From: Elusimicrobiota bacterium
Lineage (GTDB): Bacteria > Elusimicrobiota > Elusimicrobia > FEN-1173
DNA length: 64,000 nucleotides
Direction of reading: 5' to 3'
Assembly (NCBI GenBank): GCA_041917295.1
Contig: JAYRXX010000006.1
Span: 16,876-80,875 of the forward strand
The notes beneath the pieces are model-generated. The model did no database searches, was not told the origin of the DNA, and saw nothing but the letters and a program-made list of their open reading frames with translations. Shown here piece after piece: positions 12,778-26,946 of this stretch (position 1 is its first letter; the number at the start of each line of letters is the position of its first letter). The translations under genes and the position numbers were made by a program.

Positions 12778-13776
12778 TTACACCTTCCTGTCCGACAACC
12801 GTCGGGACACTTCCGCCAGCAAACCACGGGCGGGCACATCGGGAAGCGTGGCCAAGGCGGCTTCCGCTTCCCTCAACAGGGTTCGAACCATCTCTTTTGA
12901 TTTATCGAGAACACCCGAACGGCGGAGGTCGGCGATAAAGGCGTCCACCCGGCCGTTGGGACTGCGAAGCAAATCCTGAAAAGCGGTCCGTTCTTTGTCC
13001 GACGACAATCCCGCCGCGTAATCGATCAGGGGCAACGTCATCTTGCCGTGAATCAGGTCGGTGTGCAGGGTTTTCCCGACAACAGCCTCGTCGCCTTCGA
13101 TATCCAAAATATCATCGACGATTTGAAATGCCACCCCCAACCGATCGCCGAACGTCTCCAACGCGCGAAGGGGGGCCGGCTCAAGCCCGCCCAAAAGCCC
13201 GCCCGCCCGGCACGCGGCCGCCATCAACGACGCGGTCTTTTTTTGGAGAAACGACACATAATCGGCCACGGATAAATCAAAGCGGTAACGACTTTCGTAC
13301 TGGCCTATTTCGCCCTCGCACATGGTCATGGTGCATCCGGCAAACATTGACATCAAGTCCGCCCGACCCAACGCGCTCAAGCGACGAAACGCCTCGGCGT
13401 ACACATAGTCGCCCAACAAAACGGCCGCACCCTCGCCAAATTTCACGCCCACCGTGGGCCGCTGGCGGCGGATGACCGCTTCGTCCACCAAATCGTCGTG
13501 GGCCAAGGTGGCGATGTGAATCATTTCCACGGCGAGGGCGGTTTGGGCTACCTCCGCCTTGTCGGCTTTCCCAAACTGAGACCCCAAAAACACCAAAGCG
13601 GGCCGAACCCGTTTCCCGGATCCCGTTAAAACATAATCGGCCAACCGCCCCAAAAATCCGGTTTTTTCACCGGCCGCTTGGGCCAAGGCTTTTTCGGTTT
13701 CCAACAGGAAATCCGTAAGAGGTTTGGACTCCCCCGCCCGAAGAACCGGTTCCAGTAAACGAAGAGCTAGGGCCAT
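12778..13776 (-). CDS. Polyprenyl diphosphate synthase (quinone side chain)
   Basis: GKRVRP, EMIHIATLAHDDLVD, FQIVDDILD, GKMTLP; start at MALAL (13776). Confidence 0.92.
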   Translation of the reverse strand: MALALRLLEPVLRAGESKPLTDFLLETEKALAQAAGEKTGFLGRLADYVLTGSGKRVRPALVFLGSQFGKADKAEVAQTALAVEMIHIATLAHDDLVDEAVIRRQRPTVGVKFGEGAAVLLGDYVYAEAFRRLSALGRADLMSMFAGCTMTMCEGEIGQYESRYRFDLSVADYVSFLQKKTASLMAAACRAGGLLGGLEPAPLRALETFGDRLGVAFQIVDDILDIEGDEAVVGKTLHTDLIHGKMTLPLIDYAAGLSSDKERTAFQDLLRSPNGRVDAFIADLRRSGVLDKSKEMVRTLLREAEAALATLPDVPARGLLAEVSRRLSDRKV

Positions 13777-15185
13777 ACCGAACGAACCGCCGTGACCAAC
13801 AGATTTGGAAACACCCCCACAATTAAAGTGAACGCGCCGGCCCCCGCCACCACGGTCCAAATCGGCGCCGTAAGGCGCGGTTTTCCGTCACGCGGGGGCG
13901 TTCCGAAAAACATGTTGCGCATGATGGAAAAATAATAAAACAGCGACACCACGCTGTTTAAAGCGCCCGCCACAGCCAGCCACAGAAGGCCCGGCGTTTG
14001 CAAAACAGCGGCAAACAAAGAAAATTTTCCGATAAAACCGGCCATTGGGGGCAATCCCGTTAAAGACAGGAGAAACACCGCCGTCACCAAAGCCAAGGGC
14101 AGAGACCGCGCCGCCGCCCCCGCAAAAGCCTCCACGTTTTCCGATTCGGCATCTTCTGTGAAAGCGATCACGCTGGCGAACGCGCCCAGATTCATTACCA
14201 TATAGACCACCAAATAAATTAATACCGCTTGGATTCCCGCGGCCTGCCCGGCCACCAGCCCCATCAACACGTATCCCATCTGAGCGATGGAAGAGTAGGC
14301 CAACAGCCGTTTCACATTGGTTTGGCGCAGGGCGCCCAAATTCCCGATGGTCATTGTGACCGCCGACAACAAAGCCACGATGGTTATGATCGTCGACCCT
14401 TCGGCCCCTTGAAAAAAGCGGATCATCATGCCGAAAGCGGCGGTTTTCGGCGCCACAGATAAAAAGGCCGTGATGGGAGTGGGAGCGCCTTCGTAAACGT
14501 CCGGGGCCCACAAATGAAACGGGGCCAGGGCCAGTTTAAATCCAAACCCAGCTAAAACAAAGAGGAGAGCCCCGGCCAACGGCATTGCCGGAAGAGCCGC
14601 TCCAGCGGGGCCGGCAAAAGAGCTCAACTGGGTGGACCCCGTCACTCCATACAAGAGAGACATTCCAAACACCATCAACCCTGTTGAGAAACCGCCCACC
14701 AAGAAATACTTAATGGCCGCCTCGCTGGCCCGCTTATCTTGGCGGCAATAACCGGTGAGGACGAACGAGGTCAAGCTGATCAATTCGATGGAAATAAGGA
14801 TGGTCAAAAAGTCGGATGCGGAGACGAGCAAAAAGAGCCCCACCGTGGACAACAAGAGCAGGCCCAAAAACGTTCCCCACGAAAACGGTTTTCCCCCCTC
14901 TCCCGATTGAAACACGCTAAACCCCGAGCAAAACCCCATCACAACCAAGACAGACAACACCGACAACGCTTTCAAGAACCGAGAGAGAGGATCCAACGTG
15001 AGAACGCCAAAAGCGGACGTGTCGGGAGAAGCCAACGTCAAGCCGAAAGCCGCGACCAACGAAACCAACGCGATGGCGAAGGCGGATTTTTTGTGTTCGC
15101 ACCGACCGGTGTCAACCAAAAACAACACAAGGGCCCCAACCGTCAGGGCCAGTTCGGGCAACAGAGAGAGTACAGACGACGTCAT
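13767..15185 (-). CDS. nuoN: NADH-quinone oxidoreductase subunit N
   Basis: Antiporter-like; EAAIKYF, FHLWAPDVYEGAP, KRLLAYSSI. Confidence 0.95.
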   Translation of the reverse strand: MTSSVLSLLPELALTVGALVLFLVDTGRCEHKKSAFAIALVSLVAAFGLTLASPDTSAFGVLTLDPLSRFLKALSVLSVLVVMGFCSGFSVFQSGEGGKPFSWGTFLGLLLLSTVGLFLLVSASDFLTILISIELISLTSFVLTGYCRQDKRASEAAIKYFLVGGFSTGLMVFGMSLLYGVTGSTQLSSFAGPAGAALPAMPLAGALLFVLAGFGFKLALAPFHLWAPDVYEGAPTPITAFLSVAPKTAAFGMMIRFFQGAEGSTIITIVALLSAVTMTIGNLGALRQTNVKRLLAYSSIAQMGYVLMGLVAGQAAGIQAVLIYLVVYMVMNLGAFASVIAFTEDAESENVEAFAGAAARSLPLALVTAVFLLSLTGLPPMAGFIGKFSLFAAVLQTPGLLWLAVAGALNSVVSLFYYFSIMRNMFFGTPPRDGKPRLTAPIWTVVAGAGAFTLIVGVFPNLLVTAVRSVWP

Positions 15186-16672
15186 TTTCCGACCACGTGT
15201 TCGATCAATTTTTCAATGGACGGGGTCATTTTGTTTAAGAGATAAGTGGGGTAAACCCCGATCCAAATCGTCAACACAACCAGGGGAACAACGGTAATCA
15301 ATTCCCGGCCGTTCATTTCCGACAATTTCCCGTCCCACTTCGTGTTAAAAGTTCCCAAAAAGACATCTTTGATTAGTTTTAAGAAAAAGGCCGCCGTAAC
15401 CACAATACCGATGACGGAAAGCCCAACCCACAGCAACATGCCTTTTTGGCCGAACCCGCCCAGGAAACAAAGGAACTCGCCCACAAAACCGGCCAATCCC
15501 GGCAAGCCCAGGGACGCCATGGCCTGAACCGTCATGATCCCGGCAAAAATGGGCAACCGCGCCCCCAACCCGCCGAATTCGTCGATGTTACGGGTATGAG
15601 CTTGGTCGTAGATAACACCCACCAACAAAAACAAGCTCCCCGTAATAATACCGTGGGTGACCATTTGCACCATCGCTCCGGAAAGTCCCGCGGCGGCGTT
15701 CGTGCCGGTGATGGCGGCCATGCCCAGCAAACAGTAACCCATGTGGTTAACAGACGAATAAGCCACCATCCGTTTCATGTCGCGCTGGTTCATGGCGCAA
15801 AAGGCGCCGTAAACAATGTTAACGAACGCGATAAACAACAAATAAGGGGCAAACCAGCGGGTGGCCTCGGGCAAGATGGAATACGAAACCCGCAATAAGC
15901 CGTAAGTGCCCATTTTCAGAAGAACGCCCGCCAGAATCACTGACACCGCGGTGGGCGCTTCCACGTGGGCCAGGGGCAACCAGGTGTGGAACGGAAACGC
16001 CGGAACCTTAACCGCAAATCCGACGAACAAGGCCAGAAACACCCAAATAAACCGCGTGCCCACAAAGGCGCTGGACTGTTTCGCCAACTCCACCATATCA
16101 AAGGTCCGCGGTTCGCTGGAAAAATAGAGCGCCAAAATACCCAACAGCATTAACACGCTTCCCGCCAAGGTGTAAAGGAAAAATTTAACCGCAGCGTATT
16201 CTCGTTTGGGGCCGCCCCACACGCCGATCAGGAAATACATCGGGACCAATGTGATTTCCCAAAACACGTAAAACAAAAACATATCCAAGGAAACGAACAC
16301 GCCCAACATCCCTGTTTCCAAAAGCAAGAACCAGAAAAAATATTCTTTCAAACGGTTTTCAATGCCAAACGAAGCGATCAAGGCGATCACGGTCAAAGCC
16401 GTGGTGAGCAAAATCAGAGGCATCGACAACCCATCCACGCCCACGAGGTATTGAACGTTAAAGGTCGGTATCCACGCCACCCGTTCCACCAACTGCATGG
16501 TGTCCCACCCGCCGGCGGCCCCGTCAAAACGGGCCCAAGCGATCAAAGACACAGCCAGCGAAGCAACAGCCGCGCCCACGGCGGTGGTCCGCAAAAGAAA
16601 TTTACTTTCTTTAGGAAGGGCCAAAATCAACAGGGCCCCCATCAACGGTAAAAAGGTTATTAAGCTCAACAT
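15182..16672 (-). CDS. nuoM: NADH-quinone oxidoreductase subunit M
   Basis: FYVFWE, FPFHTWLPLAHVEAPT, GLPGLAGFVGEF. Confidence 0.95.
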   Translation of the reverse strand: MLSLITFLPLMGALLILALPKESKFLLRTTAVGAAVASLAVSLIAWARFDGAAGGWDTMQLVERVAWIPTFNVQYLVGVDGLSMPLILLTTALTVIALIASFGIENRLKEYFFWFLLLETGMLGVFVSLDMFLFYVFWEITLVPMYFLIGVWGGPKREYAAVKFFLYTLAGSVLMLLGILALYFSSEPRTFDMVELAKQSSAFVGTRFIWVFLALFVGFAVKVPAFPFHTWLPLAHVEAPTAVSVILAGVLLKMGTYGLLRVSYSILPEATRWFAPYLLFIAFVNIVYGAFCAMNQRDMKRMVAYSSVNHMGYCLLGMAAITGTNAAAGLSGAMVQMVTHGIITGSLFLLVGVIYDQAHTRNIDEFGGLGARLPIFAGIMTVQAMASLGLPGLAGFVGEFLCFLGGFGQKGMLLWVGLSVIGIVVTAAFFLKLIKDVFLGTFNTKWDGKLSEMNGRELITVVPLVVLTIWIGVYPTYLLNKMTPSIEKLIEHVVGK

Positions 16673-16709
16673 GAACGATCACTCCTCGTTAATAATTTCG
16701 AAAAGAAAC

Positions 16710-18674
16710 TTATCCCAACACCCCGGCGATCCAAAGAAGCAACACCCCAACCCCCACAGCCGCGGCCAACAAATAATTCTGAACAAATCCAGACTGCACC
16801 GCCCGCACGCCCGCGCCCAACCGGCCGGCCAACCATCCCCAGCCGTTCACAAAAATCCCATCAACGATCACGTCGTCCACCCATTTGTGGATACGGCCCA
16901 AACCCCGCCCGACAGCGCCCACTCCGTCCACGCCCCCCTGGTCCAGGACGTTGTAATCAAAATCCGCCAAATAGCGCGCGGGCTTAAAACACAGGACGTC
17001 GGACAAATACAAATAGACCCGATCAAAGTAGCGCACCGTCACCAGCTGATACAAAACGGGAAACCGTCCGGCAACCCAAACCGGATCGGGCGTTTTGAAA
17101 ACGTACATGGCCACAGCCAATGCCAGCCCCGCCCCCAGCGCCAACAATGAGACCCCCAGTACGACCCCGTGAACATCGTGGGCCCCGTGATGAAGCGCAT
17201 GTATTTCCACCCACTTTTCAAACGGGAACACATAGTGTAAGAGGAACCCGGCCCCGATGGAAAAAACCGCCAAAATGGCCAAGGGGATGGCCATGGTCGG
17301 ACCGCTTTCATGGGCGTGGCCGAATCGGTCCCCATCCCGGGGCGTTCCCCAAAAGGTGAGAATCATCAAACGGGTCATGTAAAAAGTGGTTAAAAAAGCG
17401 GCGAAAGCCGCCACGGCAAATAGAGCCGGATGGTCAGCGCCCAAAACCGCCGCCAAGATGGCTTCTTTGCTGTAGAACCCGGATCCCACATAGGGGAACC
17501 CGATAATGGCCAGCCAGGCGCAAAACATGGCGATGGCGGTAATGGGAAGCTTTTTAGCCAGCCCGCCCATGAGCGGCATTTCGTTGGTGTGAACAGCATG
17601 GATCACGCTTCCGGCTCCCAAAAACAACAGCGCTTTGAAAAAGGCGTGGGTGGTCAAATGAAACATACCGGACTGGGGATCTCCCACTCCCATGGACATC
17701 ACCATGAAGCCCAACTGGCTGATGGTGGAATAGGCCAACACTTTTTTGATGTCCGTGGCGGTCAAGGCGCTTAGGGCGGCACCCAACGCGGTAATCCCGC
17801 CGGTCCAGGCAACGAGCGTTTGGGCGAACGGGGAAAGAGCGAACAAGAAATGAAACCGAGCCAGCAAAAACACACCCGCGGCCACCATGGTCGCCGCGTG
17901 AATCAACGCCGAAACAGGAGTGGGCCCTTCCATGGCGTCGGGCAACCACACATGCAGGGGAACCTGGGCCGATTTCCCCACCGCACCGGCAAACAACAAC
18001 AACGAAATCACCGTGGCCACGGCGGGGGTCAAATTTTTGTATTCGTTACCGATCAAACCAAAATTGAGCGTCCCCACAGACGTGAACAACAAAAGAAGGC
18101 CCAAATAAAACCCCACATCGCCGATACGCGTCGTAATAAAGGCTTTGCGGCTGGCGTAGGCCGCGGCAGGCCGTTCAAACTCAAAACCGATGAGCAGATA
18201 GGACGACAACCCCATTAATTCCCATCCCATAAAAAACTGAAGGAGATTGTTAGCCACAACCAACAGGAGCATGGCCGACGTGAAAAAAGAGAGATAAGCG
18301 TAATAGCGGGAAAAGCGAGGCTTGCCGTGTTGATACCCCAACGAATAAACCTGGACCAAAAGGGAAACCACGGTAACCACCACAAGCATCATGGCGGCCA
18401 TACCGTCGATCATAACGCCGGTTTCTACCCGAATTGGCCCGACAGTAAACCAATCCCACGTTCGCTCAAAAAACCGCCCCGACACCCCCTCCAACGGCAA
18501 CAGATCGGGGTTCAGATAAACCGAGGCCAAAATGCCGAACGATTGAACCACCCCCCACCCCGCGGCCAAAATCCCCAAAAAGGCGCCGCCCAAAGGCAAC
18601 TTTTTGCCAAAAAACAAAATCAGAACCGACGCGGCCAGGGGCAACAAGGGAATGAGGTAAGCGTGTTCGAGCAT
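16710..18674 (-). CDS. nuoL: NADH-quinone oxidoreductase subunit L
   Basis: GKSAQVPLHVWLPDAMEGPTPVSALIHAATMV, HLTTHAFFKALLFL. Confidence 0.96.
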   Translation of the reverse strand: MLEHAYLIPLLPLAASVLILFFGKKLPLGGAFLGILAAGWGVVQSFGILASVYLNPDLLPLEGVSGRFFERTWDWFTVGPIRVETGVMIDGMAAMMLVVVTVVSLLVQVYSLGYQHGKPRFSRYYAYLSFFTSAMLLLVVANNLLQFFMGWELMGLSSYLLIGFEFERPAAAYASRKAFITTRIGDVGFYLGLLLLFTSVGTLNFGLIGNEYKNLTPAVATVISLLLFAGAVGKSAQVPLHVWLPDAMEGPTPVSALIHAATMVAAGVFLLARFHFLFALSPFAQTLVAWTGGITALGAALSALTATDIKKVLAYSTISQLGFMVMSMGVGDPQSGMFHLTTHAFFKALLFLGAGSVIHAVHTNEMPLMGGLAKKLPITAIAMFCAWLAIIGFPYVGSGFYSKEAILAAVLGADHPALFAVAAFAAFLTTFYMTRLMILTFWGTPRDGDRFGHAHESGPTMAIPLAILAVFSIGAGFLLHYVFPFEKWVEIHALHHGAHDVHGVVLGVSLLALGAGLALAVAMYVFKTPDPVWVAGRFPVLYQLVTVRYFDRVYLYLSDVLCFKPARYLADFDYNVLDQGGVDGVGAVGRGLGRIHKWVDDVIVDGIFVNGWGWLAGRLGAGVRAVQSGFVQNYLLAAAVGVGVLLLWIAGVLG

Positions 18675-18675
18675 G

Positions 18676-18984
18676 TCAACCTTTTAACATCGTCAGATTT
18701 TCTGACAGAACGGTTTTGAAGTTGCGGTGGATGGCCAGCACCAGGGCCAATCCGACCACGGCCTCCGCGGCCGCGAGGGCGATAATGAAAAGGGCGAAAC
18801 CCTGTCCCCACGGTTGGCCCGGATGGAGATAGCGGTTAAACGCCACGAAATTAATGTTGGCGGCGTTAAACATGAGCTCAATACCAATCAAAATTCCGAG
18901 CACGTTTCGCCGGGCCAAAACCCCGAACATGCCGATCGAAAACAAGATCGACGAAACCAACAAATACCCGCCCAGCCCCATCAT
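18676..18984 (-). CDS. nuoK: NADH-quinone oxidoreductase subunit K
   Basis: IELMFNAANINFVAF, AAAEAVVGLAL. Confidence 0.95.
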   Translation of the reverse strand: MMGLGGYLLVSSILFSIGMFGVLARRNVLGILIGIELMFNAANINFVAFNRYLHPGQPWGQGFALFIIALAAAEAVVGLALVLAIHRNFKTVLSENLTMLKG

Positions 18985-19484
18985 ACCGATTTATCCTTTT
19001 TCGAAAAGTGAACCGCCCCGACCAAAGCCGCCAACAACACCAGAGAAATCGCTTCGAAAGGGAACACCCAATCGCGGATCAAAAGAAGCCCCAAAGATGC
19101 CGTGGTGGGCGCGGAAGGTCCGGTCTCGGCCGCCACCGGCAACTGATGAAAAAGAATAGACAACCCACCGACGAAAACGCCCACCAACGCCAAGCCCCAT
19201 CCCCACTGGGCGTTCACTTGTTTCACCATCCAATTTTTCGGACTACCCGACAAAAGAACAACGAACAACAGCAACACCGTGATCCCCCCCGCATACACCA
19301 AAATTTGGGCCACAAACAAAAAGTCGGCCCCCAACAGGGCAAACATCCCCCCCACGCCTGTTAAAGACACAACGAGCCACAGGGCACAATGGAAAATATT
19401 TTTCAAACCCACCGCCAAAATGGCGGGAACCAAAATAAGGACAGACAACAGCCCGAACACGGTTGATTCAATCACGCCATTCAT
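18981..19484 (-). CDS. nuoJ: NADH-quinone oxidoreductase subunit J
   Basis: AQILVYAGGITVLLLF, PFEAISLVLLAALVGA. Confidence 0.95.
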   Translation of the reverse strand: MNGVIESTVFGLLSVLILVPAILAVGLKNIFHCALWLVVSLTGVGGMFALLGADFLFVAQILVYAGGITVLLLFVVLLSGSPKNWMVKQVNAQWGWGLALVGVFVGGLSILFHQLPVAAETGPSAPTTASLGLLLIRDWVFPFEAISLVLLAALVGAVHFSKKDKSV

Positions 19485-20020
19485 TAGAACGCCACCGGAT
19501 CGGACGGGGTTGAAGACCCGTTGGATTTAATGTTAACTCCGGTTTTTTGCCCCTGCGCCATAAACCGCGCCCAAATTTGGCCGAAATCCGAACCCGCTGG
19601 TTGGGCCACATCCGGCCGCCAGTCCATGACAAAATCGTTACGGTTGGTAAAGGAAAGCTCGTATTCTTTTGTGTGGTGGACGGATTTGGGTTTCGTGGGG
19701 CAAACCTCTTCGCACAACCGGCAGTAATTGCATTTCCCGAAGTCGATTTTGTACCACGCCAAATCTTTTTTCTTTGTTTCTTCGTTGCGTTTGGATTCAA
19801 GGGAAATGCACGCCGACGGGCAGGCCCGAACGCACATTTCGCACGAAATACAAATTTCCGGATGAAACGCCAACGCGCCCCGGAACCGGTCTGACAAGGT
19901 CAGTTTTTCGTGGGGATATTGAACCGTGATGGACGGCATAAACAAATGGCGAAGAGTGACACCCAGGCCTGTGACTAATCCCTTGGCCCCGTTATAAACA
20001 GATTTGAAGTAGGCGAACAT
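19484..20020 (-). CDS. nuoI: NADH-quinone oxidoreductase subunit I
   Basis: TVQYPHE, CISCEMCVRACP and CNYCRLCEEVCP; start at MFAYF (20020) overlapping the nuoH stop. Confidence 0.95.
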   Translation of the reverse strand: MFAYFKSVYNGAKGLVTGLGVTLRHLFMPSITVQYPHEKLTLSDRFRGALAFHPEICISCEMCVRACPSACISLESKRNEETKKKDLAWYKIDFGKCNYCRLCEEVCPTKPKSVHHTKEYELSFTNRNDFVMDWRPDVAQPAGSDFGQIWARFMAQGQKTGVNIKSNGSSTPSDPVAF

Positions 20021-21243
20021 TAACGCATCCTCATCAAGAACAGAAATCCAGCCACAGCCACGTTGGCCAAGGACCATGGTAGAAGAAATTTCCAGCAAAA
20101 CTCCATCAGCCGGTCCACTCTCAGCCGAGGGTAGGTCCACCGAATCAAAATAAAGAGGAACGCCAAAAAGAACGTTTTGCCAAAGAACCACACGTAAGAG
20201 GGAACAAAATTCAAGGAAGGATAAAGAGGGTTTCCCCCTCCCAAAAACAACACCGCGCCCAGGGCGCAGGCCAAGAACATGTAAGCGTACTCAGCCATAA
20301 AGAACATGGCCCATTTCATTCCGGAATATTCCGTGTGGAATCCCGAGGTGAGTTCGGACTCCGCTTCAGCAATATCAAACGGTGTCCGGTTGGTTTCGGC
20401 GATAGACGAAATCAGATAAATGAGAAAGGAAATCTGACCCACAATGGGATAGAAAATAAACCATTTGGGCAGCACCCCAGCCCATGTGCCGGACTGTTTC
20501 ATCATGATTTCACCCAATTGCATCGATCCGGCCCACATTACAACAGGGAGTAAAGAGATGACCCGGGGAATTTCATACGACACCACCTGAGCCGCCGCCC
20601 GTAACCCGCCAAGCATGGAATATTTGTTGTTGGACCCCCACCCGGCCATAAGCAGTCCGATCACCGACAGGCCCGAAACACCCAGGACAAACAACAACCC
20701 CACATCCAACCCCACCGGCGCCAGCCCGGCGTGACCAAGCGGAATGGGCGCAAAACACACCAACGCCGGAGCCACCGCCACGACCGGCGCAACAAAATGA
20801 ACCCATCGGTCCGCTCCGGCGGGAACCAAATCCTCTTTCAAGAGCAACTTTATTCCGTCAGCAATGGTTTGAAGAACGCCGTGAAACCGCCCCACTCGCA
20901 TAGGTCCCAGACGCACTTGAATGTGGGCGGCGATTTTCATTTCCCACCACACTAAGAAAATGGGCAAAACTTGAATTAGGGTCAAAACCACCATGCAGGG
21001 CACCGCGATCAAGATTGCGGAACCGATCCAGGCCGGACCACCCCGTTCAGCGATCCATTGGGTCACGAACCCGTGAACCTGATGGAAGTATTTGTCCGGT
21101 TCCCCAACCAAAATGGTTAGGGCAAACAATGGCAAAAGAAACGCCGCCAAAACCAAAGCGGACACGATGTAGCGTCGCCGAATGGATTCGGCCGACTGAG
21201 CGGCCGTCCAGGGGCCAGTTACGGTCCAGGGACCACGAGCCAT
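20020..21243 (-). CDS. nuoH: NADH-quinone oxidoreductase subunit H (with N-terminal extension)
   Basis: RLGPMRVG, ADGIKLLLKE, AETNRTPFDIAEAESEL..GFHTEYSG. Confidence 0.95.
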   Translation of the reverse strand: MARGPWTVTGPWTAAQSAESIRRRYIVSALVLAAFLLPLFALTILVGEPDKYFHQVHGFVTQWIAERGGPAWIGSAILIAVPCMVVLTLIQVLPIFLVWWEMKIAAHIQVRLGPMRVGRFHGVLQTIADGIKLLLKEDLVPAGADRWVHFVAPVVAVAPALVCFAPIPLGHAGLAPVGLDVGLLFVLGVSGLSVIGLLMAGWGSNNKYSMLGGLRAAAQVVSYEIPRVISLLPVVMWAGSMQLGEIMMKQSGTWAGVLPKWFIFYPIVGQISFLIYLISSIAETNRTPFDIAEAESELTSGFHTEYSGMKWAMFFMAEYAYMFLACALGAVLFLGGGNPLYPSLNFVPSYVWFFGKTFFLAFLFILIRWTYPRLRVDRLMEFCWKFLLPWSLANVAVAGFLFLMRMR

Positions 21244-22430
21244 TAGCGGTCAACCTCGCCCAACACAATATCGATGGATCCCAAAATCGCGACCACGTCG
21301 GCCACTTTCCACCCTTTCAACATATCCTGAAGAACAGCCAGATTGATAAAAGATGGCGCGCGCAAATGCAACCGATAGGGGCTTAACCCCCCGTCCGACA
21401 CAATATAAACGCCCAGCAAACCCCGCGCCCCTTCCAACTGAGCGTATGATTCCCCCGCTGGCGGACGCAAATTGGCTTTCGGGACCTTGCCCATTATTTC
21501 GCCGGGCGCTAAACCATCCAAGGCCTGTTCAATAATGGAGCAGGACTCGGCGATTTCGTCGCGCCGAACCATATACCGGTCCCAGCAGTCCCCGTTTTCC
21601 CGAACAGCCACATTAAATTGAAACTTGGAGTAGATCCCATAAGGAGCGTCCTTGCGGAGGTCCATCGGAACACCGCTGGCGCGCAGGTTGGGCCCCGACA
21701 CGCCATAAGAGAGCGCCAACTCTTTTTTCAAAAGGCCAACCCCTTTGGTCCGATCCATAAAGATCGGGTTGTAACTCAACAAGTCATCGTATTCTTTTAA
21801 ACAATTTTTCATGTGGGCCACAAACTTCTTGGCTTTCTCCACCCATCCCTCTGGGACATCGTTGGAGACCCCGCCGATACGCACATAATTGTAAGTGATT
21901 CGGGCGCCGCACAATTGTTCAAACAGGTCCAAAATCATTTCCCGTTCCCGACCAAAAGCGTACAGGAACGGCGTAAACGCGCCGATGTCAATGCCGAAGG
22001 TTCCGATGAACAACAGGTGCGAGGCAATGCGGTTCAGTTCGCCAGTAATCACGCGCAAATATTCGGCCCGCTGGGGAATTTCCACCTTCAACAACTTTTC
22101 CACGGCCAACGCGTAGGACCAGTTATTGAGCATGGCGCACAAATAGTCGTCGCGATCGGTGAGGATGGTGAATTGGCCGTAGGTGCGGTTTTCCGCCAGC
22201 TTTTCCACGCCGCGGTGAAGGTAACCCAAATCCATGGCCGCGCCGGTCACCACTTCGCCGTCCAATTTGAGAACCACCCGCAACACCCCGTGGGTTGACG
22301 GATGTTGGGGACCCATGTTGAGCAACATTTCCGTTTCCGACACCCGCTCCATTTTCGTTTCAAAGGAAGGGCTCGCCAGCAACGAATCCGCCCGCTCGTT
22401 CACAGTGCCGACAGGAAGCGTATCGTTCAT
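21243..22430 (-). CDS. nuoD: NADH-quinone oxidoreductase subunit D
   Basis: NMGPQHPSTHGVLR, GYLHRGVEK, GSIDIVLGEVDR C-terminus. Confidence 0.96.
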   Translation of the reverse strand: MNDTLPVGTVNERADSLLASPSFETKMERVSETEMLLNMGPQHPSTHGVLRVVLKLDGEVVTGAAMDLGYLHRGVEKLAENRTYGQFTILTDRDDYLCAMLNNWSYALAVEKLLKVEIPQRAEYLRVITGELNRIASHLLFIGTFGIDIGAFTPFLYAFGREREMILDLFEQLCGARITYNYVRIGGVSNDVPEGWVEKAKKFVAHMKNCLKEYDDLLSYNPIFMDRTKGVGLLKKELALSYGVSGPNLRASGVPMDLRKDAPYGIYSKFQFNVAVRENGDCWDRYMVRRDEIAESCSIIEQALDGLAPGEIMGKVPKANLRPPAGESYAQLEGARGLLGVYIVSDGGLSPYRLHLRAPSFINLAVLQDMLKGWKVADVVAILGSIDIVLGEVDR

Positions 22431-22951
22431 TTTGTCACCCCGGCCTTGGGTGTCCCGACCTCACTGCCGTTATCGTATTTGTCGGCAGTGTGAACATAAT
22501 CTTTCCGCAACGGCCAACCAGGATACCCGTCCCACAACAAAATACGTTTGGGGTTCGGATGCCCGTCAAAACCAATGCCAAACAGGTCAAAGGTCTCCCG
22601 TTCTTGCCAATCGGCGGCGGAGTATAGCCCGGACAACGAAGGAAGCGTGGGCCCGCCGTCCCGGGGAAGATCGACTTTCAGAATCAGTTGCTGGGAAGGC
22701 TGAGCCGAGCGAAGAAAATGATAGACCACCTCGAACCGATTTTCTTTCACGTAGTCAACGGCGGTCAAAAAGTTCAAGAAATCAAACCCCAAATTCTGTC
22801 GCAAATGGTTCGCCAGCTCTTTTACCTGGGCGCCCGGGATCTTCACTTGAAGATCGTCAATGGCCCGAACAAACTTGGGATCCGCCGAAACGACCTCAGC
22901 CGCGTCGGAAAACCGTTCCTTAATTTTTTCGAAAAGGGCCGCTTTGTCCAT
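22427..22951 (-). CDS. nuoC: NADH-quinone oxidoreductase subunit C
   Basis: ADWQERETFDLFGI.FDGHP, GWPLRKDY. Confidence 0.95.
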   Translation of the reverse strand: MDKAALFEKIKERFSDAAEVVSADPKFVRAIDDLQVKIPGAQVKELANHLRQNLGFDFLNFLTAVDYVKENRFEVVYHFLRSAQPSQQLILKVDLPRDGGPTLPSLSGLYSAADWQERETFDLFGIGFDGHPNPKRILLWDGYPGWPLRKDYVHTADKYDNGSEVGTPKAGVTK

Positions 22952-23481
22952 TATCCCGCCTTCAATGCCAAAGCGCGTTTTTGGGCCGAAATTTTGTCGA
23001 TTTTATTTTGCAACGCCAAAATGGCATTCAGCAGGGCCTCGGGACGGGGCGGACAGCCGGGGATGTAAACATCCACAGGGATAATACGATCCACCCCTTT
23101 CACCACCGAATAAGAGTCGTAGTAAGGCCCCCCGCAGTTGGAACAAGCGCCCATGGAAATAACAAACCGGGGTTCGGGCATTTGATTGTAGAGTTTTTCA
23201 ATGGCGGGAGCCATTTTTTTTGTTACGGTTCCGGCAATGATCATCAAGTCGGCTTGGCGGGGAGACGGACGCGGAATCACGCCCAAGCGGTTCACATCAA
23301 AGCGAGTGGCATAGGCGGCCATCATTTCAATGGCGCAACAGGCCAATCCAAAAGTCAACGGCCAAATGCTGGACTTGCGCGCCCAATCAATGAAAAAGTC
23401 GACGGTGGTCATACTGATCTCGCCTAGGCCGCCGACCCTATACAAAGTCGAGGGAAGAACTTTGTCTTGAATCACTCCCAT
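22951..23481 (-). CDS. nuoB: NADH-quinone oxidoreductase subunit B
   Basis: [34 protein letters not shown]. Confidence 0.96.
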
Positions 23482-23825
23482 TTCAACGCTCCGTTACGCC
23501 ACGCGTAGATCAGTCCCACAAACAAGAGGCCCACGAACAACATCACGGCGATAAATCCCTCAACTCCCAAAGAATAAAACCGCACCGCCCAGGGAAAAAC
23601 GAACAACGCTTCGACGTCGAAAACAACGAACAAGAGGGCGAAAACATAAAACCGAATATTGGGTGAAACCCAAGCAACGCCAACAGGCTCCATCCCGCAT
23701 TCGTAAGCGGAGAGGTCCTTTTTAACGCCCCGTTCCCGAACCAAGGACGCGGCAATGAGCAACACGGGAAAGAAAACCGCCGCGATGCCGGCAAAGACAA
23801 GAATGTGAAAGTAGTCGAAGGCCAT
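23472..23825 (-). CDS. nuoA: NADH-quinone oxidoreductase subunit A
   Basis: [30 protein letters not shown]; start at MAFDY (23825). Confidence 0.95.
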
Positions 23826-24481
23826 TATTTGACACCTGTGAATAAAGAAACGATACCGCCCCAGAGAGGGCGACACTCAAACTTAGAAAACCCATTAGAA
23901 AGGAAGCAATTTCTTAACACTTCCGTATCCGGCAACGCGTTGATGGACCGTTGCAAATACGAACCCGGCCACTTGTTTCCAAAAAGGACACGCCCGATCA
24001 TAGGCAAAATTGTCCGCCCATAAATTTCATGTCCCCAGCGAAGGATGAAACGGGAAGGGCGGGTTAAATCCAAAAACATCAACCGCCCGCCGGGCTCCAA
24101 CACGCGGGAAAGTTCCAGAAGCCCACCGGTTAAAACACCGCCCATAACAAGATTTCTCAAAACAAAGGCCGACACAACCCAATCGAACGATCCATCTTTG
24201 AACGGAAGCCGATCCACACCGGCCTGAATCCGGGGAAAGGAAGGACCCTGACAACGCCCCGCCTCAATCAACATACCTAAACTGAGATCGACGCCAACCA
24301 CACGAACGTTGGGATAGCGAACCAGGATGTCACGGGCCAAGTCCCCCGTGCCGGTCCCCACATCCAGAACGCGCCGAACTGAAAACAGGCTCTTAACTAA
24401 CTCCGACCGCCAAGACTTGTCCAGTCCGAGACTCGATAGACAGTTAAACAGCCGATAGCGTCGTGCCAACCCCGAAAACAT
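23825..24481 (-). CDS. ubiE: UbiE/MenG-family quinone C-methyltransferase
   Basis: MFSGLARRY, VLDVGTGTGD SAM motif, LPFKDGSFD, LWGGIVSLFTG; adjoins nuoA; the start may lie a few codons upstream. Confidence 0.8.
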   Translation of the reverse strand: MFSGLARRYRLFNCLSSLGLDKSWRSELVKSLFSVRRVLDVGTGTGDLARDILVRYPNVRVVGVDLSLGMLIEAGRCQGPSFPRIQAGVDRLPFKDGSFDWVVSAFVLRNLVMGGVLTGGLLELSRVLEPGGRLMFLDLTRPSRFILRWGHEIYGRTILPMIGRVLFGNKWPGSYLQRSINALPDTEVLRNCFLSNGFSKFECRPLWGGIVSLFTGVK

Positions 24482-24509
24482 CGGCCCAATTGAATAGGCC
24501 GATTTATTT

Positions 24510-24689
24510 TTAGAGATCTTCCGCGCCCAGGGTTTTCTTTTTGCCCTCGGTGGTGACTTTCGAGATAGAGGCGTTCACCAAATCTTCGATTTTTTTTGAC
24601 AACGCGTCGATGTAATCGCCGCCGGTCCGCAGACCCTTGTCTTTCACCGCTTTTTTAATTTTGCTGACCACAACGTAGACTTCTGCCAT
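24510..24689 (-). CDS. Bacterial histone-fold protein (Bd0055-like singlet)
   Basis: MAEVYVVVSKIKKAVKDKGLRTGGDYIDALSKKIEDLVNASISKVTTEGKKKTLGAEDL (59 aa); three-helix pattern, very close to the recalled Bd0055 sequence; GAAGGGG RBS before ATG 24689. Confidence 0.85.
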   Translation of the reverse strand: MAEVYVVVSKIKKAVKDKGLRTGGDYIDALSKKIEDLVNASISKVTTEGKKKTLGAEDL

Positions 24690-24750
24690 AGTTGACCCCT
24701 TCGGTAATGTCAAGAAAGAAAGCGAATTAAACGAATTTCCGAATCCATTG

Positions 24751-25530
24751 TCAATGTGCTGACCGAATTTTTCGGATGGTCTGAGCCCGCCCATGAGGAC
24801 AGTCTTTGCGTCGACGAACGTCCCGTTCGTAGATCTTCATGTTTAAAAAGTCAAACGCCCACAACCGGCTGGCCAGGGATGTGCCTTTCCCCAACAAGAC
24901 CTTCAATCCTTCCGTGGCCATCAACGTTCCCACCGTCCCGGCCACGGACCCAAGGATTCCCGCGTTGGAACAAGATTGGGCCAAGGCCGGATCGGGAGGT
25001 TCCGGAAACAAGCACTCGTAACAGGCTGATTGGCCCGGCAAAACGGTCATAACCTGCCCCTCCCACCGAAGAACCGCGCCCCACACCAAGGGAACCCCCT
25101 GAGCTATGCACGCGGCGTTAACCGCGTAACGGGTCTCAAAATTATCGGACCCATCCAAAACCAAATCGCACCCCGCCAGCAACCGACCGGCGTTGGCCGG
25201 CGTAAAACGAGATTTCTTGGCTACAATTTTCACACCCGGATTGAGCGCCGCCAGCTTGTCGCGTGCCGACTGAACCTTCGCTTTCCCCACATCGGGCGAA
25301 AAATGAAGAATCTGGCGATGAAGGTTGGAGAGGTCCACATTGTCGTTATCCACCAAAACTAAAGTCCCAACCCCTGCCGCCGCCAAATAAAGCGCCGCCG
25401 GCGATCCCAGGCCCCCCGCTCCGACAAGAAGGACCCGCGCCTTCGCCAGTTTTTTTTGCCCCGCCCCCCCCACCTCCGGCAAAATTAACTGCCGCGCGTA
25501 TCGTTCAATGTCTTCTTTGTTTTTTCTCAA
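24751..25530 (-). CDS. moeB: MoeB/ThiF/HesA-family adenylyltransferase (no rhodanese domain)
   Basis: RYARQLILPEVG, VGAGGLGS, SNLHRQ, DGSDNF, CYECLFP, RRKDCP; TTG start. Confidence 0.88.
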   Translation of the reverse strand: MRKNKEDIERYARQLILPEVGGAGQKKLAKARVLLVGAGGLGSPAALYLAAAGVGTLVLVDNDNVDLSNLHRQILHFSPDVGKAKVQSARDKLAALNPGVKIVAKKSRFTPANAGRLLAGCDLVLDGSDNFETRYAVNAACIAQGVPLVWGAVLRWEGQVMTVLPGQSACYECLFPEPPDPALAQSCSNAGILGSVAGTVGTLMATEGLKVLLGKGTSLASRLWAFDFLNMKIYERDVRRRKDCPHGRAQTIRKIRSAH

Positions 25531-25576
25531 GAGAGTGTCATTGTTTTATGAATTTTTTAGTCAACAGTAGAATCTC

Positions 25577-25609
25577 ATTATACGAGGATTATACGAAGTC
25601 TACGTATAA
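25577..25609. repeat. Short repeats in the moeB/fic divergent intergenic region
   Basis: ATTATACGA at 25577 and 25588 (11-bp period) plus an inverted CGTATAA at 25603. Confidence 0.4.
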
Positions 25610-25713
25610 CCGCAATGGGCCCCCCCCCTCCCCGCGGGTCGTCGCGGCGACTCAGGGATCACTCACATATGCCATGTATTGAAAAAAACTTGGCGTTTGT
25701 ATAAAATAATCCC

Positions 25714-26946
25714 ATGTTTCCACACTCTCCCCCATGGCCCAAAGACCAGCTCATTGAACGGCGTTGGGCGCCCGAGAGAGGACGAAGCGATGGGCGCTCC
25801 CTCCGACCTTATCGATATCACGCTTTCCTGCCGCTCCCCATCGCAACAAAGGAATATCCGTTAACCGCGCCCTTGGCTCAGGCCGTGGTTGAAGCCGAAA
25901 GGGCTTGCCTGGAGCTGAACCAAAACCCTCCCATGGCGTCGAACTTGGAAGGGTTGGCACGACACCTCCTGAGAGCGGAATCGGTCGCTTCATCGCGAAT
26001 TGAGGGACTGATTTTGTCCCACCGACGTCTGGCCCGAGCCTTCCTTTCTGAAAAACATCGAGACTTAAACGCCCAGTCGGTGGTCGCCAATGTTTTGGCG
26101 ACAGAGAAAGCCATTGCCCTGGCCACCCAAAATGAGGATGTTTCCTTGGAAACCATTTTAACAATCCATCGGACCCTCCTTGAGGGGACCCGGGAGGAGC
26201 GATTTGCAGGGATCGTACGACAGGGACAAAACTGGATCGGTGGCCGTGCCGACGGCCCCCTGGGAGCGGACTTTGTCCCTCCGCCGGAGGACAAGCTCCC
26301 TGAAGCGCTCAAGGATTTATGCGCATTTATGAACCGCACAGACCTTCCGGCCAGTCTTCAGGCCGCTGTCGCGCACGCGCAATTCGAAACATTGCATCCT
26401 TTTATTGACGGCAATGGCCGTGTGGGCCGAGCGCTGATCCATTTGGTCCTTCGCCGCCGCAGGCTCGCCGCTCGCTATGTTCCACCGGTTTCTTTGGCGC
26501 TGGCCGGGCGGGCAGATCGTTACGTTCATGGTCTCACAGCTTATCGATTGGGCCACGAAGAATCCTGGTTTCTTCTTTTTTGCGACGCCCTCTCATCCTC
26601 CGCTGGGCGGTCACGAACTTTTGCCGACGACATTCTCCATCTCCAACAGACGTGGAGCGAAAAGGCGGGCCATCCAAGGCCCCACTCCGCCCCAAAAAAA
26701 TTGATCGACCGGCTTCCCGCTTATCCGGTCATAGATATCCAGACCGCTCAATCGGTGACAGGACTCGAACGGGAAGCATGCCGGTTGGCGGTTCTCCGCC
26801 TAGAAAAAGCGAACATCCTGCGGGAAATCACCCTTTCTCGACGAAATCGCGCGTGGGAAACCGTCGGCCTTTTTGACCTTTTGGACCGCTTTGAGCGCAC
26901 CCTGGGCCCGCACTCCCGCACGCCCCCGCCCACACGGCATGAGTGA
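25714..26946 (+). CDS. Fic family protein (class II-like, N-terminal inhibitory helix)
   Basis: Canonical HPFIDGNGRVGR; SSRIEG fits the (S/T)xxxE(G/N) inhibitory motif; C-terminal HTH-like region. Confidence 0.92.
   Translation: MFPHSPPWPKDQLIERRWAPERGRSDGRSLRPYRYHAFLPLPIATKEYPLTAPLAQAVVEAERACLELNQNPPMASNLEGLARHLLRAESVASSRIEGLILSHRRLARAFLSEKHRDLNAQSVVANVLATEKAIALATQNEDVSLETILTIHRTLLEGTREERFAGIVRQGQNWIGGRADGPLGADFVPPPEDKLPEALKDLCAFMNRTDLPASLQAAVAHAQFETLHPFIDGNGRVGRALIHLVLRRRRLAARYVPPVSLALAGRADRYVHGLTAYRLGHEESWFLLFCDALSSSAGRSRTFADDILHLQQTWSEKAGHPRPHSAPKKLIDRLPAYPVIDIQTAQSVTGLEREACRLAVLRLEKANILREITLSRRNRAWETVGLFDLLDRFERTLGPHSRTPPPTRHE

What the first reader, a model, noticed from the sequence alone, without database searches (positions are those of the whole stretch)
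24510..24689. Bacterial histone gene upstream of the respiratory operon
Seen: a 59-aa Lys-rich protein, easily hidden inside a longer spurious ORF-track call. Known: it closely follows the recalled Bdellovibrio Bd0055 histone (MAEVLVVTSKVKKLIKEKG...GRKTVMARD); such singlet histones are abundant chromatin proteins in a few bacterial phyla, including predatory ones. The usual R-x-T...D L2-loop motif here reads K-K-T-L-G-A-E-D. Inference: histone-based chromatin in this organism, with a variant DNA-contact loop, co-oriented with moeB and ubiE-nuo.
Basis: partly seen in the sequence, partly recalled or inferred. Interest (0 to 1): 0.65.

Follow-up and report, generated by a model that had tools for sequence, protein, structure and literature searches.

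The report
Elusimicrobial histone gene leading complex I operon
This is a real, transcribed 59-residue bacterial histone of the already described HBb/Bd0055 type in an activated-sludge Elusimicrobiota bacterium; the less expected part is that across most of that phylum it sits as the first gene ahead of the respiratory complex I operon.

Summary
Window 24510-24689 (- strand) encodes a 59-aa, Lys-rich protein (pI 9.3) with its own Shine-Dalgarno sequence. The 94-aa ORF around it is an over-extension.

It belongs to the alpha3-truncated "bacterial dimer" histones:
- 42-46% identity to Bdellovibrio HBb/Bd0055; PDB profile search E 8e-12.
- The AF2 model (pLDDT 88) superposes on HBb at TM 0.87, and every other fold match is a histone.
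- The L2 motif reads KKTLGAED. The clamp Arg is Lys in at least 90% of the 52 close relatives aligned.

Its relatives are confined to Elusimicrobia/Elusimicrobiota MAGs (171 species-level genomes). Histones in this phylum were already reported in 2023-2024, so this is one more member of a known kind.

New here:
- In 58 of 70 informative related loci the histone lies co-oriented just upstream of a methyltransferase gene and nuoABCD.
- Metatranscriptome contigs from several studies, in this species and a sister species, mostly start 11-14 nt before the histone ATG and run into the downstream genes.
- This contrasts with the published statement that such histones are single-gene operons.

DNA binding, dimer state and protein abundance remain untested. 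Interest is moderate to low.

The parts
24510..24689 (-). Histone CDS: 59 codons plus a TAA stop at 24510-24512. Alpha3-truncated 'bacterial dimer' class. Model: alpha1 8-17, L1 18-23, alpha2 24-48, L2 49-55, one-turn alpha3 56-58.
   Evidence: Purifying selection against L001: 14 synonymous versus 3 non-synonymous codon differences.
24696..24702 (-). Shine-Dalgarno-like GAAGGGG, 6 nt before the ATG.
   Evidence: Sequence. Invariant in the window, L001 and L049. GGAGG/AAGGAG-type sites occupy the same position in nearly all 77 related loci printed.
24703..24703 (-). 5' end of the zero-mismatch metatranscriptome contigs of runs X12 and X13, 14 nt before the ATG. Neither run has contigs over the upstream moeB-like gene.
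   Evidence: The sister locus L001 gives the equivalent position, 11 nt before its ATG, in two other studies. Some contigs (X27, X45) extend further upstream.
24726..24754 (-). Candidate promoter: TTGACA (24754-24749), a 17-nt spacer, then TTTAAT (24731-24726). The -35 box overlaps the TGA stop of the moeB-like gene.
   Evidence: Read. Both boxes are conserved blocks in the window/L001/L049 alignment, while the flanks diverge. The consensus scanner did not report it because it requires A at position 2 of the second hexamer. This is an inference; the transcription start was not mapped.
24480..24503 (-). 9-bp hairpin in the 28-nt gap after the stop codon, followed by GUUUUC. Its 3' arm overlaps the ATG of the downstream methyltransferase gene. 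It may be a weak terminator or attenuator.
   Evidence: -15.4 kcal/mol, z = -2.9. A similar hairpin plus ATGTTTTC is present in L001. RNA contigs read through it. Function is inferred.
23825..24481 (-). UbiE/COQ5-family SAM methyltransferase gene, 28 nt downstream and co-transcribed.
   Evidence: Pfam PF01209, E 4e-31. One RNA contig spans the histone, this gene and nuoA.
13767..23876 (-). nuo operon. The annotated ORFs, in order, are nuoA, B, C, D, H, I, J, L, M and N; no nuoE/F/G-like gene lies among them. nuoA is given as the longest ORF, 23472-23876.
   Evidence: Pfam hits.
24751..25530 (-). ThiF/MoeB-family gene upstream. It is not part of the conserved arrangement.
   Evidence: Pfam PF00899, E 3e-82. 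A homologue was found in only 4 of 80 related loci, and directly upstream in only 2, L001 and L049. No RNA contigs lie over it in X12 or X13.

Best explanation
The gene encodes a 59-residue histone-fold protein of the alpha3-truncated 'bacterial dimer' class, the class of Bdellovibrio HBb/Bd0055.

The most likely mechanism, by homology, is as follows. Two chains form the antiparallel alpha2 'handshake' dimer. The dimer binds the DNA backbone without sequence specificity, through the first turn of alpha1 (S9-K10, K12, K13, K16) and the paired L1/L2 loops (R21-T22; K51-K52-T53). It bends or compacts DNA as an abundant nucleoid-associated protein.

The L2 loop is held by a Lys51-Asp58 pair in place of the usual Arg-Asp clamp.

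The gene has its own promoter-like element and a strong ribosome-binding site. It is transcribed as the first cistron of an mRNA that continues into a quinone-type methyltransferase gene and the complex I (nuo) operon. A hairpin after the histone stop codon may let histone mRNA exceed the downstream message.

Shown: the gene, its homology, the predicted fold, phylum-wide conservation, conserved synteny and transcription. Inferred: dimerisation, DNA binding and bending, abundance, and the promoter and attenuator roles.
For: Homology:
- phmmer against the PDB: HBb (8fvx/8cmp) E 5e-8, HLp E 6e-6, HTkC E 2e-3.
- Clade profile A1: HBb E 8e-12.
- Wider profile A2: HBb 6e-23, HLp 4e-21, HTkC 3e-19. 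It also reaches HMfA (1e-4), HMfB (5.5e-4), NF-YB (2e-3) and H4 (0.02).
- 33 of 84 relatives hit Pfam CBFD_NFYB_HMF and 9 hit Histone.
- 42% identity to an HBb-type protein.

Fold:
- The AF2 model has pLDDT 87.9, with alpha1 8-17, alpha2 24-48 and alpha3 56-58.
- Foldseek: 9ezz_B TM 0.87, rmsd 1.5 A, 46% identity, probability 1.00. Then come HLp and HTkC, and after those only histone-fold chains among the 50 matches listed.

Residues:
- Six of the ten main HBb DNA-contact residues listed in PMC11317129 are identical and invariant in the clade: S9, K10, K12, K16, K52, T53.
- The HBb dimer-core hydrophobic positions (V11, L31, I35, L38, I59) correspond to I11, L30, I34, L37 and L59, my mapping from the alignments.
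- The residues HLp uses for tetramer contacts (R49, N53) correspond to V45 and G49 here.

Conservation:
- 530 homologues.
- 171 species-level genomes, the 80 listed titled Elusimicrobia/Elusimicrobiota/Endomicrobia or just 'bacterium'.
- 69-88% identity among the 52 aligned clade members, all drawn from the best 120 hits.
- Synonymous changes outnumber non-synonymous ones.

Expression:
- RNA contigs cover the gene in X12, X13, X26, X27 and X30.
- The sister-species gene is covered in X43-X46.
- Contig depth over the histone (19.3 and 13) is at least that over rpsB in the same runs (9.5-16.8 and 1.6-2.6). This is only a rough measure.
Against: - No direct evidence of DNA binding, dimerisation or protein abundance.
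- Pfam's histone model scores 12.7 bits, below its 21.4-bit cut-off, on this protein alone.
- The clamp Arg is Lys. HBb's strong DNA contact R57 is an invariant Glu here, and T8 is Val. The DNA interface therefore differs in detail.
- The tight, conserved linkage to a respiratory operon is unusual for a global nucleoid protein. PMC11390915 describes alpha3 histones as single-gene operons.
- Contig depth is a poor proxy for expression (tool caveat).
Confidence: 0.72

Rival explanations
1. It is an operon-linked specialist. The histone-fold protein acts mainly on, or with, the complex I / quinone module. It could be a local transcription regulator of its own operon, or a factor whose dosage is deliberately tied to respiratory gene expression, rather than a genome-wide chromatin protein.
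For: - In 58 of 70 informative loci the gene is co-oriented immediately upstream of nuoA. This is so whichever methyltransferase occupies the slot between them (33 Methyltransf_28, 22 UbiE-like) and in 3 cases with none.
- Gaps to the next gene are often only 4-60 nt.
- RNA contigs run from the histone into ubiE, nuoA and nuoB.
Against: - Twelve loci, including the Endomicrobia, keep the gene in unrelated contexts or as a stand-alone gene with a strong terminator, for example L013, L079, L046 and L058.
- The conserved surface is the generic, non-specific DNA-backbone interface of HBb.
- The very high sequence conservation and strong ribosome-binding site fit an abundant structural protein.
- Adjacency may simply be inherited gene order behind a strong promoter.
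Confidence: 0.12
2. It is a face-to-face (FtF) tetrameric histone like Leptospira HLp or Thermococcus HTkC, wrapping about 60 bp of DNA rather than bending it as a dimer.
For: HLp and HTkC are also significant sequence and structure matches: E 3e-9 and 7e-7; TM 0.81-0.82.
Against: - HBb is the better match in every search.
- The residues that make the dimer-dimer contacts in HLp, R49 and N53, which are conserved in bacterial FtF histones, correspond to V45 and G49 here (for the residues; the mapping is mine).
- PMC11390915 places the Elusimicrobiota among the phyla in which 'bacterial dimer' histones are predominantly found.
Confidence: 0.1
3. The true product is the 94-aa ORF (24510-24794), or the short ORF is not a real gene.
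For: - The 94-aa ORF is open.
- Gene callers extended a few close relatives in the same way (P0001, P0002, P0005, P0007, P0008).
- Two RNA contigs, in X27 and X45, extend upstream of the promoter-like boxes.
Against: - 110 of the 120 best homologues are 59-60 aa.
- The apparent conservation of the extension (IDN...NSFN) corresponds to the DNA blocks ATTGACAA and AATTCGTTTAAT, which look like promoter boxes.
- In more distant loci the upstream frame holds stop codons or a tRNA gene lies directly upstream.
- A Shine-Dalgarno sequence sits directly before the inner ATG.
- The RNA contigs of X12 and X13 start at 24703.
- There is strong purifying selection on the 59 codons only.
Confidence: 0.03

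Closest known systems
HBb / Bd0055 of Bdellovibrio bacteriovorus (PDB 8CMP, 8FVX, 9EZZ, 9F0E); 'bacterial dimer' alpha3-truncated histones (Schwab et al. 2024, PMC11390915; Hu et al. 2024, PMC11317129; Hocher et al. 2023, PMC10627809)
   Same: - Singlet of about 60 aa with no tail, beginning MAEV.VV.SK.KK.
- S9-K10 motif, alpha1 lysines, short alpha2, one-turn alpha3, KT pair and Asp in L2/alpha3.
- 42-46% identity; model TM 0.87.
- The phylum is already listed as carrying this class.
   Different: - The clamp Arg51 is Lys; one extra residue (K50) lies before it.
- L1 is one residue shorter and carries an invariant Arg21.
- HBb's R57 is an invariant Glu and T8 is Val.
- The chain ends at L59, without HBb's C-terminal IVIDHL.
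- It is embedded at the head of a multigene transcript rather than standing as a single-gene unit.
HLp of Leptospira perolatii (PDB 9QT0-2) and HTkC of Thermococcus kodakarensis (PDB 9F2C): face-to-face alpha3 histones
   Same: The same alpha3-truncated fold and size, with significant sequence and structure matches.
   Different: It lacks the R49/N53-type tetramerisation residues, so tetrameric DNA wrapping is not expected.
Archaeal nucleosomal histones HMfA/HMfB (PDB 1B67, 1A7W, 5T5K)
   Same: The histone fold, and an RKT...D-type L2 motif whose T and D are kept. They are reached by the wider family profile at E 1e-4 to 5.5e-4.
   Different: In the HBb comparison with HMfB, alpha2 is one turn shorter and alpha3 is only a single turn, and the tetramerisation residues are absent (PMC11317129). 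Here the model shows a 3-residue alpha3. Structural similarity is only TM 0.5-0.6, and Pfam's model is below threshold on this protein.
HU/IHF family (functional analogue only)
   Same: A small, basic dimeric protein that bends DNA non-specifically. This is the functional comparison drawn for HBb in PMC11317129.
   Different: An unrelated fold. No HU-like gene was found in this 64-kb window, which says nothing about the rest of the genome.

Membership tests
Alpha3-truncated 'bacterial dimer' histones (HBb/Bd0055 class) | Significant sequence similarity to HBb-type histones. PMC11390915 defines the class by sequence clustering. | tested here: met
   E 5e-8 for the single sequence, 8e-12 for the clade profile and 6e-23 for the wider profile, against 8fvx/8cmp. 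42% identity to HBb-type P0226.
Alpha3-truncated 'bacterial dimer' histones (HBb/Bd0055 class) | Histone fold with alpha3 cut to 3-4 residues and a shortened alpha2. | tested here: met
   AF2 model, pLDDT 87.9: alpha2 spans 24-48 and alpha3 spans 56-58. TM 0.87 and rmsd 1.5 A to 9ezz_B. This is a prediction, not a solved structure.
Alpha3-truncated 'bacterial dimer' histones (HBb/Bd0055 class) | KT pair in L2 and the Asp of the RKTxxxxD motif. | tested here: met
   K52, T53 and D58 are invariant in 52 clade members.
Alpha3-truncated 'bacterial dimer' histones (HBb/Bd0055 class) | The Arg of the R-D clamp (R51 in HBb). | tested here: not met
   It is Lys51 here and in at least 90% of the clade; a few members have Arg, such as P0022, P0024 and P0039. 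The change is conservative, and most other alpha3 histones keep GRKT.
Alpha3-truncated 'bacterial dimer' histones (HBb/Bd0055 class) | S9-K10 motif and conserved alpha1 lysines. | tested here: met
   S9, K10, K12 and K16 are invariant and K13 is at least 90% conserved. The motif is described in PMC10627809 and PMC11390915.
Alpha3-truncated 'bacterial dimer' histones (HBb/Bd0055 class) | Dimer as the largest assembly, with no FtF tetramer contacts. | tested here: inconclusive
   The positions equivalent to R49/N53 are V45/G49. That argues against a tetramer. A dimer or tetramer model could not be run.
Alpha3-truncated 'bacterial dimer' histones (HBb/Bd0055 class) | Non-specific DNA binding and bending; high cellular abundance. 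| not testable with these tools
   Only transcription was seen.
Alpha3-truncated 'bacterial dimer' histones (HBb/Bd0055 class) | Single-gene transcription unit, as stated for alpha3 histones in PMC11390915. | tested here: not met
   RNA contigs span histone, ubiE, nuoA and nuoB, and histone into ubiE in L001. The intergenic gap is 28 nt. The arrangement is conserved in 58 of 70 loci.
Nucleosomal histones / Pfam CBFD_NFYB_HMF (PF00808) | Score above Pfam's gathering threshold. | tested here: not met
   12.7 bits against a cut-off of 21.4. At E <= 0.01, 33 of 84 relatives do match the model.
Nucleosomal histones / Pfam CBFD_NFYB_HMF (PF00808) | An alpha3 of about 10 residues, which nucleosomal histones use to join dimers into tetramers through a four-helix bundle. 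| tested here: not met
   The chain ends 1 residue after D58, and alpha3 is 3 residues in the model.
Face-to-face (FtF) histones (HLp, HTkC) | Conserved Arg and Asn at the end of alpha2 that make the dimer-dimer contacts. | tested here: not met
   V45 and G49 occupy the equivalent positions.

The most novel reading that the evidence does not exclude
In most Elusimicrobiota the histone is not a free-standing nucleoid-protein gene. It is the conserved leader cistron of the complex I operon: histone, then a UbiE-like or NDUFAF7/MidA-like methyltransferase, then nuoA to nuoN. This linkage would be functional. Either histone supply is tied to respiratory or energy status, or the histone acts on the expression of its own operon. 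That would be an operon-embedded histone, unlike the bacterial and archaeal histones discussed in the papers read here.
Probability: 0.15. Interest if true: 0.6.

Novelty: new member of a known kind. Interest (0 to 1): 0.35.

Why it matters
Bacterial histones were characterised only recently, and only from Bdellovibrio and Leptospira. Elusimicrobiota were noted as a phylum where histone genes persist, but the paper that noted this said no expression profiles were available for the clade.

This locus adds three things:
- In-situ transcription evidence for the Elusimicrobial histone, in two species and several sludge, wastewater and bioreactor studies.
- A clade-wide Lys-for-Arg variant of the L2 clamp, together with a Glu where HBb has its DNA-contacting Arg57. 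That makes a natural test case for which contacts the minimal histone fold really needs.
- A conserved placement at the head of the complex I operon, which contradicts the general statement that these histones are single-gene units.

None of this changes the picture of what the protein is. It is a useful annotation, since gene callers label it 'hypothetical protein' or over-extend it to 82-99 aa. It is also a modest lead on how histone dosage is controlled in this phylum.

Tried and rejected
- Direct Pfam and NCBIfam scans of the protein gave nothing significant: CBFD_NFYB_HMF at E 0.16. A PHROGs scan also gave nothing, so the 'phage-related protein' label on two JGI homologues finds no support.
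- The first AF2 model, built on the shallow clade alignment, was mediocre (pLDDT 69.6, C-terminus below 50). Its Foldseek search found nothing significant. A more diverse alignment fixed this.
- The sigma-70 consensus scanner found no promoter in 23700-25700. The candidate TTGACA-N17-TTTAAT fails its rule of A at position 2 of the -10 box, so that promoter call rests only on a three-sequence footprint and the RNA 5' ends.
- I considered a transcription start exactly at 24703 and rejected it. The bases 7-12 nt upstream are neither -10-like nor conserved in L001. The contig ends probably fall about 15 nt short of the true start, or mark a processed end.
- I searched for a second histone copy or an HU gene in the window; neither was found. 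The window holds no tRNA gene, unlike many related loci.
- Linkage to moeB was rejected as a conserved feature (4 of 80 loci).

Full report
**1. What is in the sequence**

On the - strand, 24689-24510 reads ATG...TAA. It encodes MAEVYVVVSKIKKAVKDKGLRTGGDYIDALSKKIEDLVNASISKVTTEGKKKTLGAEDL. The protein is 59 aa and 6.35 kDa, has pI 9.26, and contains 11 Lys and 1 Arg.

The short form is the real one, for six reasons:
- GAAGGGG lies 6 nt before the inner ATG. GGAGG/AAGGAG-type sites occupy the same place in nearly all related loci.
- 110 of the 120 best database homologues are 59-60 aa.
- In close relatives the extension looks conserved only as 'IDN...NSFN'. In DNA terms that is ATTGACAA and AATTCGTTTAAT.
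- In more distant loci the upstream frame holds stop codons, and a tRNA gene sits directly upstream in many others.
- Against the sister locus L001, the 59 codons differ at 14 synonymous and 3 non-synonymous codons. The 105 nt upstream are only 67% identical.
- The RNA contigs in the two best-covered metatranscriptomes begin at 24703, downstream of the outer ATG.

**2. What it is**

Searched alone against the sequences of all PDB chains, the protein finds:
- the Bdellovibrio histone HBb/Bd0055 (8fvx, 8cmp) at E 5e-8;
- the Leptospira perolatii histone HLp (9qt0) at 6e-6;
- the Thermococcus histone HTkC (9f2c) at 2e-3.

A profile of 52 clade members (alignment A1) improves these to 8e-12, 3e-9 and 7e-7.

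Pfam and NCBIfam do not recognise the protein on its own. CBFD_NFYB_HMF scores 12.7 bits against a cut-off of 21.4.

A full HMMER scan of 1.84 billion cluster representatives with the clade profile found 422 relatives at E <= 1e-3. They include:
- HBb-type proteins ending GRKTVMARDIVIDHL;
- many 58-aa singlets ending GRKTVxxxDL;
- 118-135-aa doublets;
- members with an N-terminal Cys-rich domain.

A profile of 84 of these singlets (alignment A2, window protein first) matches the following in the PDB:

| Target | E-value |
|---|---|
| HBb | 6e-23 |
| HLp | 4e-21 |
| HTkC | 3e-19 |
| HmvA | 2e-7 |
| M. kandleri histone 1f1e | 4e-6 |
| HMfA | 1e-4 |
| HMfB | 5.5e-4 |
| NF-YB | 2e-3 |
| H4 | 0.02 |

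Of the 84 members, 33 hit Pfam CBFD_NFYB_HMF, 9 hit Histone and 6 hit DUF1931.

With alignment A2, AlphaFold2 gives a confident model (pLDDT 87.9). It has alpha1 at 8-17, L1 at 18-23, alpha2 at 24-48, L2 at 49-55 and a single-turn alpha3 at 56-58.

Foldseek against the PDB ranks HBb first: 9ezz_B with TM 0.87, rmsd 1.5 A, 46% identity and probability 1.00. HLp and HTkC follow (TM 0.81-0.82). After them, the 50 matches listed are all histone-fold chains: H4, HMfA, NF-Y, TAFs and MHF.

**3. Residue-level comparison with HBb**

The alignments place a one-residue deletion in L1 and a one-residue insertion (K50) before the L2 motif. From residue 51 on, numbering therefore coincides with HBb.

PMC11317129 lists ten principal DNA-contact residues of HBb: N22, R57, S9, T53, T8, S24, K10, K12, K52 and K16.
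- Six are identical here and invariant in the clade: S9, K10, K12, K16, K52 and T53.
- N22 corresponds to an invariant Arg21.
- T8 is Val, S24 is Gly, and R57 is an invariant Glu.

The R51-D58 'RD clamp' becomes K51-D58. K51 is at least 90% conserved, and a few members have Arg. It is a property of the clade, not a peculiarity of this one gene.

The hydrophobic dimer-core positions of HBb (V11, L31, I35, L38, I59) correspond to I11, L30, I34, L37 and L59.

The residues that build the HLp tetramer, R49 and N53, correspond to V45 and G49. That argues for the dimer class and against the face-to-face tetramer class.

**4. Who has it**

A scan of one genome per GTDB species found 171 genomes encoding a relative. 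All but seven of the 80 listed are titled Elusimicrobia, Elusimicrobiota or Endomicrobia; the others are labelled only 'bacterium' or, in one case, Candidatus Obscuribacterium magneticum. All 80 are MAGs. The closest is a wastewater MAG, L001: histone 95%, NuoB 98% and NuoD 94% identical.

The window itself occurs at zero mismatches and about 211x word depth in an activated-sludge run. It also occurs in many other sludge and bioreactor runs.

There is no second copy, no HU-like gene and no tRNA gene in the 64-kb window.

**5. Context and transcription**

In the window the gene order on the - strand is as follows (Pfam):
1. ThiF/MoeB-family gene
2. 61-nt gap
3. histone
4. 28-nt gap
5. UbiE-family methyltransferase
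6. nuoA, B, C, D, H, I, J, L, M, N (no nuoE/F/G-like gene among the annotated ORFs)
7. polyprenyl synthetase

Seventy related loci have at least 1.5 kb of downstream sequence. In 58 of them nuoA is co-oriented within about 0.1-1.2 kb:
- 33 have a Methyltransf_28 (MidA/NDUFAF7-like) gene in between.
- 22 have a UbiE-like gene in between.
- 3 have nothing in between.

The gap to the next gene is often only 4-60 nt.

The upstream neighbour is not conserved. A moeB homologue turned up in 4 of 80 loci, and directly upstream of the histone in only 2, L001 and L049. A tRNA-Met(CAT) gene sits directly upstream in all 29 loci I scanned.

The 12 loci without nuo include Endomicrobia, where the order is nrdR, GGDEF gene, histone, kinase-like gene, then a fourth co-oriented gene that I read from its sequence as dCMP deaminase-like. 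They also include loci where the histone stands alone with a strong terminator.

RNA evidence for the window:
- In two metatranscriptomes of one study, zero-mismatch contigs cover 23532-24703 and 23256-24703. That spans histone, ubiE, nuoA and, in one run, the start of nuoB.
- Both contigs end at 24703, 14 nt before the ATG. Neither run has any contig over the moeB-like gene.
- In two further studies the only contig in the 2.8-kb region covers the histone: 24519-24687 and 24463-24641.
- A variant-strain contig in another study runs from 24554 to 24859, into the end of moeB.

RNA evidence for the sister locus L001, in four runs from three other studies:
- Contigs cover the histone and continue into ubiE.
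- Two of them start 11 nt before the ATG.
- One starts 148 nt upstream.

Contig depth over the histone (19.3 and 13) is at least that over rpsB in the same runs. The tool warns that contig depth is a poor measure of expression.

My reading is this. Most transcripts start just upstream of the histone and read through into the methyltransferase and nuo genes. There is some read-through from upstream, and message levels appear to decline downstream.

Two sequence elements fit that reading:
- **Candidate promoter.** TTGACA (24754-24749), 17 nt, then TTTAAT (24731-24726). Both boxes are conserved blocks in the window/L001/L049 alignment. The consensus scanner did not report them because the -10 box lacks A at position 2.
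- **Hairpin.** A 9-bp hairpin at 24503-24480 (-15.4 kcal/mol, z -2.9), followed by GUUUUC, overlaps the ubiE start codon. L001 has a similar one.

Both are inferences.

**6. Comparison with the literature**

- Hocher et al. [quoted passage not shown]
- Schwab et al. 2024 (PMC11390915) list Elusimicrobiota among the phyla holding 'bacterial dimer' alpha3 histones. They describe the RKTxxxD motif and the alpha1 lysines.
- Hu et al. 2024 (PMC11317129) say the HBb contact residues are conserved in Elusimicrobiota histones.

The existence and class of this protein are therefore already known. Schwab et al. also state that nucleoid-protein genes are generally single-gene operons and that this holds for the alpha3 histones. 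The conserved histone-methyltransferase-nuo arrangement and the spanning RNA contigs do not fit that statement for this phylum. My searches for 'bacterial histone' or 'histone' together with Elusimicrobia/Elusimicrobiota turned up only the histone papers cited here, and a search of PMC11390915 for 'NADH' found nothing.

**7. Verdict**

- The interpretation as a Bd0055-like bacterial histone is supported by sequence, profile and predicted structure.
- The inference of histone-based chromatin is plausible by homology but untested.
- The finding is a new member of a known kind.
- Its added value is the in-situ transcription evidence, the clade-wide Lys clamp and E57 variant, and the conserved position at the head of the complex I operon.
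- Whether that position has functional meaning is open. I put it at about 15%.

Noticed in passing
window 26988-32627 (- strand): A 1879-aa ORF with no Pfam family at E <= 1e-5. It lies just beyond the divergently oriented Fic gene.
   Followed up: no
window 25714-26946 (+ strand): A Fic/DOC-family protein with a Fic_N domain, divergent from the moeB-histone-nuo strand. No homologue was found in any of the 80 related loci.
   Followed up: no
L005-L079: 29 loci, about 30-190 nt upstream of the histone start (e.g. L018 5404-5475): A tRNA-Met(CAT) gene sits directly upstream of the histone gene in all 29 loci scanned. In many it is followed by a conserved palindrome, CCCGGACATTGATCTAGGTCAATGTCCGGG, and a T-rich stretch. 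The window has moeB there instead, and no tRNA gene at all.
   Followed up: partly
related loci, slot between the histone and nuoA (e.g. L005 6218-7219; window 23825-24481): The slot holds either a UbiE-like methyltransferase (22 loci) or a Methyltransf_28 (MidA/NDUFAF7-like) methyltransferase (33 loci), or is empty (3 loci). The flanking histone and nuoA stay fixed. To my knowledge NDUFAF7 is a complex I assembly methyltransferase in mitochondria; its presence inside a bacterial nuo operon may deserve a look.
   Followed up: partly
window 12778-23876 (- strand): The nuo run has the annotated ORFs A, B, C, D, H, I, J, L, M and N, with no nuoE/F/G-like gene among them. A polyprenyl synthetase gene follows, and rpsB lies further on. 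With the UbiE-like gene at its head, the operon mixes quinone biosynthesis with complex I.
   Followed up: partly
upstream regions printed (e.g. L007, L008, L018, L032, L069) and window 24726-24731: A -10-like element of the form T-N-TAAT (TTTAAT, TGTAAT, TCTAAT), with a variable second base, recurs about 40-60 nt before many histone start codons. Other loci show canonical TTGACA-N17-TAxxxT promoters. The promoter grammar of this phylum was not examined further.
   Followed up: no
proteins P0124, P0137, P0145, P0156, P0200 and P0248: Relatives found by the clade profile include pseudodimeric doublets (118-135 aa), a 279-aa protein with a C-terminal histone domain, and proteins with an N-terminal Cys-rich domain resembling the 'ZZ histones' of PMC11390915.
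   Followed up: no
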